From a bacterium (lineage in GTDB: Bacteria > Patescibacteriota > Minisyncoccia > Phycocordibacterales > UBA5272): a stretch of 48,786 nt of DNA. Location of the stretch: the NCBI GenBank assembly GCA_023267555.1, contig JAHFMZ010000003.1:1-48786 (forward strand), written 5' to 3'. A program made the translations under genes and the position numbers. The notes beneath the pieces were generated by a model. The model saw nothing but the letters and a program-made list of their open reading frames with translations. It did no database searches and was not told the origin of the DNA. Shown here piece by piece: positions 1 to 36,656 of this stretch; position 1 is the first letter of the stretch, and every line of letters begins with the position of its first letter.

Positions 1-2
1 TC

Positions 3-93
3 TTCAAATCCCAACGAATGACACGCAGGTGTCATTCTTCGATTGCGCAAAATTAAAATACCCAAGGCTTTCGCTTTGGGTATTTTAATTTTG
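3..93 (-). mobile_element. 3'-type target-antisense mini-element after tRNA-Asp (cut by window edge)
   Basis: Minus strand: trailer hairpin, then TGCGCAATCGA-[AGAATGACA CCTGCG TGTCATTCGT]-TGGGATTTGAA, a split antisense copy of the tRNA 3' end; same layout as the elements at 27.0, 30.4, 35.0 and 36.5 kb. Confidence 0.65.
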
Positions 94-167
94 CGCAGTC
101 GATGGGATTTGAACCCACGACCCCCGCCGTGACAGGGCGGTGCTCTAACCAGCTGAGCTACGACTGC
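94..167 (-). tRNA. tRNA-Asp(GTC)
   Basis: Cloverleaf GCAGTCG/CGACTGC, anticodon loop CTGTCAC, T-loop TTCAAAT. Confidence 0.96.
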
Positions 168-174
168 ATATTTA

Positions 175-276
175 CATTTTAACACTTACAAACGTTTCTC
201 ATTTCTTTTAGATTTAGCACCGCCTTTGGGCGGACTCGCTATATTCTAATTGAGCTGAGCTACGACTGCATATTTA
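175..276 (-). repeat. Upstream duplication of the tRNA-Asp 5' end with anti-tRNA hairpin
   Basis: 24-bp direct repeat 151-174 / 253-276; inverted copy AGCACCGCC at 216-224. Confidence 0.8.
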
Positions 277-339
277 TATTTTACTAAACTTAACCATTCT
301 AGCAAAATACTAGAATCCGTCCACAAAATTGTTTACGGG

Positions 340-413
340 TGTCGGCGGGTGGGAACGATCCACCGACCTTGGGCTTATGAGTCCCACGCTCTAACCAACT
401 GAGCTACGCCGAC
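340..413 (-). tRNA. tRNA-Met(CAT), elongator or Ile2
   Basis: GTCGGCG/CGCCGAC acceptor stem, CTCATAA anticodon loop; atypical T-loop ATCGTTC. Confidence 0.88.
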
Positions 414-415
414 AT

Positions 416-517
416 ATGTTTATTTTACAAACTCAATCTATATCTAACAACTCATAAGCCTATGGAGTAATTGCGCTTATGAATATCCGCGCCAAGCCAA
501 CTGAGCTACGCCGACAT
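416..517 (-). repeat. Upstream duplication of the tRNA(CAT) 5' end with anti-anticodon hairpin
   Basis: 21-bp direct repeat 395-415 / 497-517; ACTCATAAGCC...GCTTATGA hairpin between the copies. Confidence 0.8.
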
Positions 518-518
518 T

Positions 519-563
519 TTTGAAAGAAGCGCCCGCCACTATGTGGCGGGCGCTTCTTTCAAA
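519..563. terminator. Perfect 21-bp inverted repeat, probable terminator
   Basis: TTTGAAAGAAGCGCCCGCCAC-TAT-GTGGCGGGCGCTTCTTTCAAA. Confidence 0.75.
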
Positions 564-590
564 GCTTAAATGTCACATAGTCTTTGCTTG

Positions 591-661
591 TTGCGGGAAC
601 AGGAATCGAACCTGTGTCCCGAGGTTATGAGCCTCGTGAGTTACCTCTACTCTATCCCGCT
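591..661 (-). tRNA. tRNA-fMet(CAT), initiator
   Basis: A1xA72 mismatch, A11:U24 pair, CTCATAA loop, TTCGATT T-loop. Confidence 0.88.
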
Positions 662-763
662 ATATATTTTACAAACTAATATTACCATTATTTACATAAC
701 CTCGTCAGGTTATGAGAGCTATTGATTCCTCTTGTGAGTTACCTCTACTCTATCCCACTATAT
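662..763 (-). repeat. Upstream duplication of the tRNA-fMet 5' end with anti-anticodon hairpin
   Basis: 23-bp direct repeat 636-658 / 734-756; CATAACCT-CGTC-AGGTTATG hairpin. Confidence 0.8.
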
Positions 764-861
764 ACTTATATTATTAAGTTTAAATATAATAACACATTTT
801 TTAAAAATATGAAAGTTAATTTGTAGTTTTTTTTATTAACAAACTGATATAATATGATTAT

Positions 862-1311
862 ATGGAAAAGCAAGACCCAATTTTCTTTTATGAGCACGAT
901 TATTATATTTTTTCTAATTTCTCATCTTTTACTCTTGAGTGGAAAGGTCATCTTTATATGACATCAGAACACGCATATCACACAGAAAAATTTGAGAATG
1001 AAGAAATGAAAGAAGCAATACGAAATACACGCTCAGCACACGAAGCTTTTAAATATGCAGAAGTTAATAAAGACAAAAGACGAAAAGATTGGGATGATAT
1101 AAAACTCGGAATAATGAAAGAAATTCTTCATAAAAAAGTCGAACAACATCCTTATGTAAAAAAGAAACTTCTAGCATCTGGCGATAGACAACTCATAGAA
1201 GATTCTTGGCGAGATGATTTTTGGGGATGGGGACCAAATAAAAATGGAGCAAATCATTTAGGAAAACTTTGGATGGAAGTTAGAGAAGAAGTAAAAGAGC
1301 AAAAGATATGA
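862..1311 (+). CDS. NADAR family (YbiA/RibX-like) protein
   Basis: FSNF, SEHAY...KF, L+EDS..D.FWG.G..G.N.LG..WM.VR motifs. Confidence 0.9.
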   Translation: MEKQDPIFFYEHDYYIFSNFSSFTLEWKGHLYMTSEHAYHTEKFENEEMKEAIRNTRSAHEAFKYAEVNKDKRRKDWDDIKLGIMKEILHKKVEQHPYVKKKLLASGDRQLIEDSWRDDFWGWGPNKNGANHLGKLWMEVREEVKEQKI

Positions 1312-34860: not shown

Positions 34861-34944
34861 TATGGAATCCTCCAAAAAGTTAAAGAGCCGATATTTGATA
34901 TCAAAACTGGTTTTATCCTGTCATACGGAAAAAGAAAATGCAAA

Positions 34945-35093
34945 TTTGTGCCCAGGGCGGGACTCGGTCACAAAATCAGCTCCTTCGTCGCAGATGATTT
35001 TCCGACCCGTATTCGAGTCCCGATAAAAGCCAAGCAGTTGGCTTTCTCCCTGTCACAAAATGAAAAAGCTGGCAAAAGCCAGTTTTCATTTTG
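34945..35093 (-). mobile_element. 3'-type target-antisense mini-element after tRNA-Leu(TAA)
   Basis: 22-bp direct repeat 34945-34966 / 35090-35111; split antisense TGTGACAGGG-[AGAAAGCCA ACTGCT TGGCTTTTAT]-CGGGACTCGAA; GGGTCGGAAAATCA...TGATTTTGTGACC. Confidence 0.8.
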
Positions 35094-36422: not shown

Positions 36423-36575
36423 CAACATAAAAAATGAGACCGCGTAAGCTGTCCATTTTTTAGTTGTGCCCGAGAAGCAAGTGATCTGCACCACTTGCGT
36501 AAGGACTTGAATAGGGGTCGCGAAGTCTTCTATTTTTGATTACAAAAATAGACTTTGTGACCAAGTCCTTTCCCG
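36423..36575 (+). mobile_element. 3'-type target-antisense mini-element after tRNA-Leu(TAG)
   Basis: GTTGTGCCCGAGA-[AGCAAGTG ATCTGCAC CACTTGCGT]-AAGGACTTGAA, TAGGGGTCGCGAAGTC...GACTTTGTGACC, direct repeat AAGTCCTTTCCCG. Confidence 0.8.
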
Positions 36576-36656
36576 CATTAAAAACATATGCGAGGTGACC
36601 AAACCCTTTCTTATCCTTGCTTTCACCTCATCTTTGTGGTATTACGAAACTACGTA

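What the first reader, a model, noticed from the sequence alone, without database searches (positions are those of the whole stretch)
151..763. Second family: tRNA 5'-end duplications about 100 bp upstream with an anti-tRNA hairpin
Three consecutive tRNAs (Asp, CAT, fMet) each have a copy of their 5' 21-24 bp placed 102, 102 and 98 bp upstream. Between the copies is a hairpin whose 3' arm is antisense to the same tRNA just beyond the duplicated part (GGCGGTGCT, GGCTTATGAGT, CGAGGTTATG). All three share GTTTGTAA shortly before the intact gene. Known tRNA-targeting islands usually duplicate the 3' end, so repeated 5' duplication with target-matched hairpins is unusual. Inference: a mirror-image insertion family, or leaders acting as anticodon decoys or regulators.
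Basis: partly seen in the sequence, partly recalled or inferred. Interest (0 to 1): 0.75.

Follow-up and report, generated by a model that had tools for sequence, protein, structure and literature searches.

The report
Broken tRNA copies upstream of tRNAs
Three neighbouring tRNA genes each lie about 100 bases behind a broken copy of their own first part that ends in a small hairpin; such local duplication scars are common in this group of tiny bacteria and keep changing in step with the working gene.

Summary
tRNA-Asp, tRNA-Met(CAT) and tRNA-fMet (minus strand) each have a direct copy of leader plus 5' end 102, 102 and 98 nt upstream. Each also has a hairpin whose 3' arm is a perfect 9-11 nt complement of the same tRNA.

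It is not limited to these three genes. 8 of 40 tRNAs in this genome carry such a copy, 7 of 32 and 3 of 31 in two congeners, 0 of 34 in a third, and 1 of 67 in other Patescibacteria families.

Relatives hold filled and empty alleles. In empty alleles the promoter and leader abut the tRNA.

The upstream pieces are truncated 5' tRNA parts (position 1 to about 33-46), not a dispersed repeat. They evolve in concert with the working gene, and the hairpin arms follow compensatory changes in the tRNA.

Best reading (0.5): decayed local tandem duplications of promoter-leader-5' part with a fold-back junction, often lost and otherwise homogenised. Main rival (0.25): a functional anti-tRNA leader.

I found no published description. 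New variant of a known kind; interest 0.55.

The parts
93..167 (-). intact tRNA-Asp(GTC)
   Evidence: ARAGORN; Rfam tRNA 71.4 bits
176..193 (-). proximal promoter-like stretch before tRNA-Asp: a -10-like hexamer with TG two bases upstream (176-181) and the shared 8-mer (186-193)
   Evidence: read; 8-mer positions; part of the direct repeat
215..241 (-). Asp leader hairpin. The 3' arm (216-224) is an exact complement of tRNA-Asp positions 23-31. The 5' arm carries the sense copy of the anticodon-stem strand (229-233).
   Evidence: -12.6 kcal/mol, z -3.0
253..292 (-). upstream copy of tRNA-Asp positions 1-17 (253-269) plus about 21 nt of leader
296..323 (-). promoter-like site with TG-extended -10 upstream of the Asp copy. 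In empty alleles of relatives the same promoter sits directly before tRNA-Asp.
337..414 (-). intact tRNA-Met(CAT), elongator or Ile2 type
   Evidence: Rfam 340-413, 61.1 bits
422..450 (-). promoter-like site between hairpin and tRNA-Met; its -10 overlaps the shared 8-mer at 425-432
450..484 (-). Met hairpin. The 3' arm (450-460) is an exact complement of the anticodon loop and 3' stem strand of tRNA-Met. The 5' arm (475-484) is the degraded sense copy.
   Evidence: I4; -10.8 kcal/mol, z -1.8
471..517 (-). upstream truncated copy of tRNA-Met positions 1-46 (first 20 nt exact, 77% overall, no gaps)
   Evidence: (D1)
519..563 (.). perfect 21-bp inverted repeat (terminator-like) between tRNA-fMet and the Met copy
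   Evidence: I2; kept in relatives
590..661 (-). intact tRNA-fMet(CAT)
669..676 (-). shared 8-mer before tRNA-fMet, inside a 13-nt stretch identical to the one before tRNA-Met
   Evidence: D4
695..716 (-). fMet hairpin. The 3' arm (695-704) is an exact complement of tRNA-fMet positions 33-42. The 5' arm (707-716) is an exact sense copy of positions 31-40.
   Evidence: I5, D6; -9.6 kcal/mol, z -3.7
731..767 (-). upstream copy of tRNA-fMet positions 1-26 plus 8 nt of leader
   Evidence: (D3)
786..813 (-). promoter-like site with TG-extended -10 upstream of the fMet copy. It is homologous to the promoter that directly precedes tRNA-fMet in empty alleles.

Best explanation
Each of the three loci is a decayed local tandem duplication. 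The unit 'promoter or leader plus the first 33-46 nt of the tRNA gene' was copied once. The upstream copy is the displaced, truncated original. Its broken end is capped by a short fold-back: an inverted copy of 9-13 nt of the tRNA, made at one of the tRNA's own stem-loops. The downstream copy is the working gene with a short new promoter-proximal stretch.

The likeliest origin (inferred) is template switching or hairpin-primed repair at a stalled fork or a break inside the heavily transcribed tRNA gene, followed by restart further upstream.

After birth the elements have three fates:
(a) They are lost again and again by deletion between the direct repeats.
(b) Their tRNA-derived parts are kept like the working gene by gene conversion or templated correction.
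(c) The rest decays.

The original promoter still reads through the fragment, so the pre-tRNA probably carries a leader of 100-130 nt that RNase P removes.

Shown: the anatomy, the alleles, the turnover and the concerted evolution. Inferred: the mutational mechanism, transcription, and the absence of a function.
For: 1. The repeat includes leader sequence. It runs 1 to 40 nt upstream of tRNA position 1 in the 8 elements of this genome. In tRNA-Thr(TGT) it covers the promoter-like -10 at about 70% identity.
2. In empty alleles of relatives the same promoter and leader abut the tRNA. In filled alleles they abut the upstream copy.
3. The upstream copy is a contiguous truncated 5' part. For Met it aligns without gaps over 46 nt. 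For Val and fMet it reaches positions 36 and 41.
4. The interiors are unique in the genome, so this is not a dispersed mobile element. The two-hairpin repeat module of relatives is absent from the window.
5. The elements are dispensable and turn over:
- 8 of 40 tRNAs carry a copy here, 7 of 32 in G008, 3 of 31 in G012 and 0 of 34 in G017. The sets of tRNAs differ.
- The fMet element is filled in 8 of 18 genus genomes.
- On a one-protein tree the fMet state needs at least 5 changes among 16 labelled genomes.
- Decayed remnants exist in G010 and G016.
6. The fold-back point varies (anticodon loop, end of the anticodon stem, variable region). It is missing or ambiguous in 2 of 8 elements, Val and Thr.
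7. No recombinase tracks the elements. There is one PF00589 gene in each of G000, G008, G002 and G017.
8. RNase P RNA is present, so a long leader can be removed.
Against: 1. Persistence is long for neutral DNA that direct repeats should delete. Homologous fMet and Asp elements, with shared filler sequence, occur in genomes whose neighbouring protein is only 60-66% identical (L132, L135).
2. In the fMet family the tRNA-derived parts are about twice as conserved as the rest. Upstream copy 0.78, sense arm 0.80 and antisense arm 0.80, against filler 0.47 and spacer 0.38.
3. The upstream copy scores best with its own genome's tRNA in 9 of 9 genomes.
4. Both hairpin arms follow a compensatory change of an anticodon-stem pair in L066 (Asp) and in L132 (fMet). 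The arms are too short for ordinary RecA-type conversion (recalled).
5. The antisense arm matches the working tRNA at least as well as the sense arm does in 6 of 7 tRNA-derived hairpins. This is a tendency, not a significant result.
6. A full inverted middle copy, as a classical tandem inversion duplication would leave, is not detectable.
7. No read-level or experimental evidence for the mutational mechanism exists.
Confidence: 0.5

Rival explanations
1. Functional leader. The upstream fragment and hairpin are a selected cis-acting part of the pre-tRNA. The antisense arm can pair either with the local sense copy or with the body of the tRNA made just after it. The upstream copy of the acceptor strand can compete for the 3' acceptor strand. 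Together they would form a folding or processing switch, or a released leader RNA that binds the tRNA.
For: - Antisense arms are exact complements of the working tRNA over 9-13 nt in Asp, Met, fMet, Ala, Cys, Asn and L132 fMet.
- The antisense arm matches at least as well as the sense arm in 6 of 7 hairpins.
- Both arms follow tRNA stem changes.
- tRNA-derived parts are conserved at 0.78-0.80 against 0.38-0.47 for the rest.
- The upstream promoter is kept in filled alleles, so the fragment is probably transcribed with the tRNA.
- Minimum-energy folds of the long Asp and Met precursors pair the upstream copy, not the real 5' strand, with the 3' acceptor strand.
Against: - The elements are dispensable. 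There are none in G017 (0 of 34), empty alleles are common, and different tRNAs carry them in different genomes.
- No element-wide conserved motif or Rfam family was found.
- The target of the antisense arm differs between tRNAs (D and anticodon stem strands, or the anticodon loop).
- For Met a promoter-like site lies after the hairpin and a strong terminator-like repeat lies before the copy. That fragment may not be part of the main transcript.
- RNAalifold finds almost no covariation inside the family: 1 of 10 pairs.
- No expression data. The RNA run that was laid holds only tRNA-like parts.
Confidence: 0.25
2. Footprint of an incoming element that targets the 5' part of tRNA genes and rebuilds it. 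This would be the mirror image of integrase-type islands, or the work of a hairpin-loving transposase. The proximal promoter, leader and 5' end would come with the element, and the native 5' end would be pushed upstream.
For: - Filled and empty alleles exist.
- The exact repeat ends in the D loop (positions 17-20) in 7 of the 8 elements of this genome.
- The same genome has a 3' family with a shared structured core at many tRNAs.
- In relatives the upstream copies are interrupted, mostly right after positions 13-14, by a ~48-nt two-hairpin repeat. That repeat has about 27 copies in G008.
- The repeat goes with Y1 transposase genes: both present in 17 genomes, repeat only in 10, gene only in 2, neither in 12 of 41. 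Related genomes are not independent.
Against: - The window's three elements and the other five of this genome have unique interiors and no copy of that module.
- G000, G012 and G013 have elements but neither the module nor a Y1 gene.
- The repeat includes locus-specific leader sequence.
- An insert of about 100 nt holds no gene, and only one tyrosine recombinase is present per genome whatever the element load.
- No IS110-type gene was found.
- The module also lies far from tRNAs, so it may simply settle in dispensable DNA.
Confidence: 0.15
3. Chance similarity or assembly artefact.
For: - The contig starts inside this tRNA cluster, and tRNAs often lie at contig ends here.
- The Asp element (177-308) was not covered by the contigs that were laid.
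Against: - Exact copies of 17-23 nt together with exact inverted copies of 9-11 nt at three neighbouring genes cannot be chance. The blast E-values are 1e-6 to 1e-10 in a search space of 800 nt.
- Homologous structures occur in at least 9 separately assembled genomes.
- Contigs of other runs cover the Met and fMet elements without a difference.
Confidence: 0.02

Closest known systems
Direct repeats of tRNA 3' ends left by integrase-type islands and prophages (attL/attR; recalled, Williams 2002, not read here)
   Same: A partial tRNA copy flanks inserted DNA while an intact gene is kept. Filled and empty alleles exist. The repeat ends inside a tRNA loop.
   Different: Here the 5' end is repeated. 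The insert is only about 100 nt, holds no gene and is unique to each locus. The repeat includes leader sequence, and a fold-back copy caps the fragment. No extra integrase was found.
Tandem inversion duplications and quasi-palindrome template switching in bacteria (recalled: Kugelberg et al. 2010; Dutra and Lovett 2006; only related titles seen in the listing)
   Same: The order is direct copy, short inverted piece, direct copy. The junction lies at a natural short palindrome (a tRNA stem). Palindrome arms can be corrected against each other.
   Different: No full inverted middle copy is detectable. The events recur at many tRNA genes of a clade and persist over long divergence. The arms also track the working gene.
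Non-canonical tRNA gene fragments in prokaryotes (PMC9897764; outline and abstract seen)
   Same: [quoted passage not shown]
   Different: By its abstract that work treats archaeal and general annotation errors. It does not describe 5' fragments about 100 nt upstream with fold-back hairpins. The main text was not read.
Regulatory RNAs made from tRNA precursor spacers, such as the 3' external spacer of the glyW-cysT-leuZ operon (recalled, not read here)
   Same: If the leader is functional, a by-product of tRNA processing would act through base pairing.
   Different: The known cases pair with sRNAs or mRNAs, not with the tRNA of their own transcript, and are not copies of the tRNA.
Split tRNA genes of Nanoarchaeum (recalled)
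   Same: A free-standing 5' tRNA part followed by a sequence able to pair with another piece.
   Different: An intact gene follows here. The fragment ends before or in the anticodon arm at varying points, and no matching 3' half gene is involved.

Membership tests
Integrase-type tRNA integration scar (attL/attR) | Direct repeat of part of the tRNA gene on both sides of inserted DNA, with an intact gene kept | tested here: met
   but the 5' part is repeated, not the 3' part
Integrase-type tRNA integration scar (attL/attR) | A tyrosine or serine recombinase gene in or beside the insert, or extra copies in genomes that carry the scars | tested here: not met
   The insert of about 100 nt holds no gene. 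One PF00589 match in each of G000, G008, G002 and G017, whatever the load. Serine recombinases were not searched.
Integrase-type tRNA integration scar (attL/attR) | Inserted DNA is foreign: no homology to the native flank | tested here: not met
   The repeat runs 7-40 nt into the native leader in 7 of 8 elements
Tandem inversion duplication / fold-back junction duplication | Direct copy, inverted copy, direct copy, with junctions at short natural palindromes | tested here: inconclusive
   A short inverted piece of 9-13 nt lies at a tRNA stem in 6 of 8 elements. The rest of the spacer is not an inverted copy of leader or tRNA: p>0.05 in 7 of 8, and the eighth is a self-palindrome.
Dispersed repeat (MITE, REP or PATE type) | Many similar copies in the genome with a shared body | tested here: not met
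   The interiors of the 8 elements hit only themselves. The covariance model of the module of relatives finds nothing significant in G000 or in window 1-900.
T-box or other described tRNA-sensing leader | Match to a curated RNA family | tested here: not met
   In window 1-900 Rfam passes the gathering score only for tRNA; no leader match passes it
Split or permuted tRNA gene | No intact gene for that tRNA; halves joined at RNA level | tested here: not met
   An intact, high-scoring tRNA gene follows each fragment
Functional structured leader RNA | Base pairs kept through compensatory changes across relatives | tested here: inconclusive
   Hairpin pairs are nearly invariant in 8 fMet elements; 1 of 10 pairs has a double change. 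Two cases of double change follow the tRNA.
Functional structured leader RNA | Transcribed as part of a stable or processed RNA | not testable with these tools
   No RNA run holds the locus beyond tRNA-like parts

The most novel reading that the evidence does not exclude
The upstream fragment and its antisense arm are a selected 'anti-tRNA' leader. It would be a self-made RNA switch, born by partial duplication of the gene it controls. It would hold the nascent tRNA, or its acceptor strand, in an alternative pairing until processing, or yield a leader RNA that titrates the mature tRNA. Patescibacteria with minimal regulation would keep it at some tRNAs.
Probability: 0.2. Interest if true: 0.8.

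Novelty: new variant of a known kind. Interest (0 to 1): 0.55.

Why it matters
tRNA genes are among the most stable sequences known, yet in this genus up to a fifth of them carry a broken copy of their own start.

If the copies are scars, they mark tRNA genes as hot spots of template switching in minimal genomes. They also give a natural record of birth, homogenisation and loss of small duplications.

If they are kept by selection, they would be a new kind of pre-tRNA leader that pairs with its own tRNA.

There is a practical side. Such fragments break assemblies at tRNAs, and the abstract of PMC9897764 describes tRNA gene fragments being mis-annotated as canonical genes.

Tried and rejected
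- Rfam at gathering score and at E up to 5 gives nothing but tRNAs and chance hairpin hits for the leaders.
- Spacer as a decayed inverted copy of the rest of the tRNA and leader: not supported.
- Filler between the exact repeat and the hairpin as a copy of another tRNA part: not supported. The best of 14 tests is p=0.025, uncorrected.
- By eye, some fillers of this genome looked like decayed copies of the two-hairpin module of relatives. The covariance model does not support this, and nhmmer listed no hit.
- Box C/D-like guide, hammerhead-like core and bulge-helix-bulge readings were considered by eye only and dropped for lack of the defining motifs.
- An invertible switch between the antisense arm and the tRNA was considered and dropped, because inversion would break the gene without restoring another.
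- Reads: the Asp element (177-308) had no cover. The RNA run X13 held only tRNA-like parts, probably of other organisms. Joints that skip 98 nt (425 to 524) and 163-166 nt (168-170 to 334-335) come from contigs 86-95% alike, so they are probably relatives with empty alleles and do not show variation within this population.
- Six literature searches gave no description of 5' tRNA duplications with fold-back hairpins in Patescibacteria or elsewhere. Only listings were seen, apart from the outline and abstract of PMC9897764. Most subscription journals are not in that library.
The analysis was redone from coordinates.

Full report
THE OBSERVATION

The window starts inside a cluster of three minus-strand tRNA genes: Asp(GTC) at 93-167, Met(CAT) at 337-414 and an initiator-like Met(CAT) at 590-661. 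Each has a direct copy of its start further upstream:
- Asp: 31 nt at 97%, spacing 102.
- Met: 47 nt at 77%, spacing 102.
- fMet: 37 nt at 92%, spacing 98.

The exact tRNA part is 17, 20 and 23 nt. The repeat also runs 21, 1 and 8 nt into the leader.

Between copy and gene lies a hairpin. Its 3' arm is an exact complement of the cognate tRNA over 9, 11 and 10 nt. The hairpins fold at -12.6, -10.8 and -9.6 kcal/mol, with z-scores of -3.0, -1.8 and -3.7.

The shared 8-mer GTTTGTAA is not enriched in the window: 4 found against 3.3 expected. Three of the four copies, however, lie 8-26 nt before the three genes. Before Met and fMet it overlaps a -10-like hexamer, and for Met the consensus scan calls a promoter-like site there.

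WHAT THE UPSTREAM PIECE IS

It is more than the first 21-24 nt. For Met the copy aligns without gaps to tRNA positions 1-46. For fMet a sense copy of positions 31-40 lies just before the antisense arm (D6). For Asp the sense strand of the anticodon stem is there too.

So each piece is a truncated 5' tRNA part. It is exact up to the D loop and scrambled or interrupted by filler in the 3' half of the D arm. It becomes recognisable again in the anticodon arm and then folds back on itself.

THE WHOLE GENOME

The genome is 513,749 bases in 24 contigs with 40 tRNAs. Eight of the 40 tRNAs have such an upstream copy: Ala, Thr(TGT), Val(TAC), Asp, Met, fMet, Cys and Asn. Six of these eight have an exact antisense arm of 9-12 nt.

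tRNAs without the element have a TG-extended -10 about 12-17 nt before position 1 (read).

The interiors of the eight elements are unique in the genome. Neither the spacers nor the fillers derive from the rest of the tRNA.

A mirror-image 3' family is more common. Twelve of 40 tRNAs have a direct copy of 13 nt or more of their 3' end 118-194 nt downstream, and 17 of 40 at E<0.05. Unlike the 5' family, it has a shared structured core.

RELATIVES

Record titles place the genome among Patescibacteria MAGs labelled Paceibacterota or Nomurabacteria. The fMet-Met-Asp cluster is conserved, and each element is present or absent independently.
- Asp: filled in G000, G012, G013, L066 and L135. Empty in G024, G016, G017 and G022, with 52-62 nt between the genes.
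- Met: filled in G000, G024 and G013. A remnant in G016. Empty in G012 and G017.
- fMet: filled in 8 of 18 genus genomes, and also in the distant L132.

In empty alleles the promoter and leader stand directly before the tRNA. In filled alleles the same promoter and leader stand before the upstream copy. On a tree of one neighbouring protein the fMet state needs at least 5 changes among 16 labelled genomes. That is one gene only, and the tree is unrooted.

Upstream copies in surveys of near-complete tRNA sets (up to 30 loci fetched per genome):
- G008: 7 of 32 tRNAs.
- G002: hits at 7 of 32, of which 3 start at position 1.
- G012: 3 of 31.
- G017: 0 of 34.

The tRNAs affected differ between genomes. 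Further out, 9 of 102 tRNAs carry a copy in 80 Paceibacterota loci, and 1 of 67 in 29 genomes of other Patescibacteria families.

CONCERTED EVOLUTION

The upstream fMet copy scores best, or ties for best, with the tRNA of its own genome in 9 of 9 genomes. It follows changes in the acceptor stem and the D arm.

In L066 the second pair of the tRNA-Asp anticodon stem differs from that of G000, and both arms of the upstream hairpin carry the matching change. The same holds for a pair of the fMet anticodon stem in L132.

Mean pairwise identity in the fMet family:
- Upstream copy: 0.78.
- Sense arm: 0.80.
- Antisense arm: 0.80.
- Filler: 0.47.
- Spacer: 0.38.

When hairpins are defined by folding alone, the 3' arm matches the working tRNA at least as well as the 5' arm does in 6 of 7 tRNA-derived hairpins. 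That is a tendency, not a significant result.

READING

The copied unit contains native leader, and in one case promoter. The interiors are unique. The elements are dispensable and often lost. The fold-back point varies. No recombinase tracks them.

This fits local partial tandem duplication with a fold-back junction, followed by loss, homogenisation and decay. I put it at 0.5.

The long persistence, the tracking of tRNA changes by arms too short for ordinary conversion, and the well-kept antisense arm keep a functional anti-tRNA leader alive. I put that at 0.25.

Folding of the long precursors shows what such a leader could do. In the minimum-energy folds of Asp and Met the upstream copy takes the 3' acceptor strand. 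RNase P RNA is present.

An incoming-element origin gets 0.15, because of what relatives show. There the upstream copies are interrupted, mostly right after positions 13-14, by a ~48-nt two-hairpin module with covarying stems. The module is a dispersed repeat:
- About 27 copies in G008.
- Present in 27 of 41 genus genomes at E of 1e-4 or better.
- Found away from tRNAs too.

It goes with Y1 transposase genes (module and gene both present in 17 genomes, module only in 10, gene only in 2, neither in 12). Related genomes are not independent.

The module is absent from this genome, which nevertheless has eight elements. I therefore take it as a later settler in dispensable DNA with a target in the D stem, not as the cause.

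LIMITS

- There are no expression data.
- The tree rests on one protein.
- The surveys of relatives rest on up to 30 loci per genome and on blast thresholds.
- Literature was searched in an open-access library only.
- Statements on MEPS, tandem inversion duplication, att-site sublocations and spacer-derived regulators are recalled, not read here.

Noticed in passing
window 1-92; 34900-35092; 36424-36620; other contigs of G000: A 3' family. After many tRNAs comes a terminator hairpin that draws in an inverted copy of the acceptor 3' strand. Next come a hairpin with a conserved loop and variable stem, an inverted T-arm copy, and a conserved core around a long variable hairpin. Last is a direct copy of tRNA positions 55-74, 118-194 nt downstream. 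12 of 40 tRNAs have a copy of 13 nt or more. Near-identical cores occur at seven different tRNAs.
   Followed up: partly
L177 1321-1368; L182 1396-1442; L185 1626-1676; L178 1623-1748; L249 1402-1449 (relatives G008, G002): A ~48-nt two-hairpin module interrupts the upstream tRNA copies, mostly right after tRNA positions 13-14. It has covarying stems, matches no Rfam family, and has about 27 copies in G008. It is found in 27 of 41 genus genomes and is absent from G000.
   Followed up: partly
genus genomes G001-G056: Y1 transposase (PF01797) matches occur in 19 of 41 genomes and go with the two-hairpin module: both present in 17, module only in 10, gene only in 2, neither in 12. This suggests an IS200/IS605-type or REP-associated enzyme moves the module. 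Related genomes are not independent.
   Followed up: partly
L182 1190-1500 (G008, before tRNA-Thr GGT): Two tandem units of module, a D-loop-like 10-mer and a conserved stretch with -35 and -10-like boxes lie before one tRNA. Only the proximal unit begins with the tRNA's acceptor strand. The conserved promoter-like stretch recurs before other tRNAs of G008, G002 and G017.
   Followed up: no
L114 and L117, about 71 nt before tRNA-Thr(GGT): A 26-nt hairpin made of the tRNA's acceptor 5' strand, the start of the D arm and the acceptor 3' strand, like a minihelix. It is identical in two distant genomes while the spacer after it differs.
   Followed up: no
L058 (G012), 115-170 nt before tRNA-Gln(TTG): Two successive upstream copies of the tRNA start. 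The distal one is split after position 10 by an 18-nt perfect palindrome whose centre resembles the conserved loop of the 3'-family hairpin.
   Followed up: no
window 3-20 against 96-113: The contig begins with an inverted copy of the T arm and acceptor 3' strand of tRNA-Asp, split by a 25-nt hairpin. It belongs to the 3' family and is cut by the contig end.
   Followed up: partly
G000 C8:47-120, C2:315-399, C19:93-167; G012 C25, C26, C16, C42: tRNA genes often lie within 100-300 nt of contig ends, as expected if the repeated flanks break assemblies.
   Followed up: no
G000 C12:1340-1412: ARAGORN calls a tRNA with an odd anticodon loop (two-letter anticodon) just before a 5S rRNA-like stretch.
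   Followed up: no
L266, L268, L272 (G008): Long runs of 7- to 8-nt tandem repeats lie right beside copies of the two-hairpin module, away from tRNAs.
   Followed up: no
window 337-414: tRNA-Met(CAT) has an unusual T loop, and its gene is followed by ACCC rather than an encoded CCA. Whether it is an elongator Met or a lysidine-type Ile tRNA was not settled.
   Followed up: no
L306 (G060, another Patescibacteria family), before tRNA-Lys(TTT): The same split pattern outside the family: tRNA positions 1-13 at -104 and 14-29 at -61, plus a 3' direct copy.
   Followed up: no
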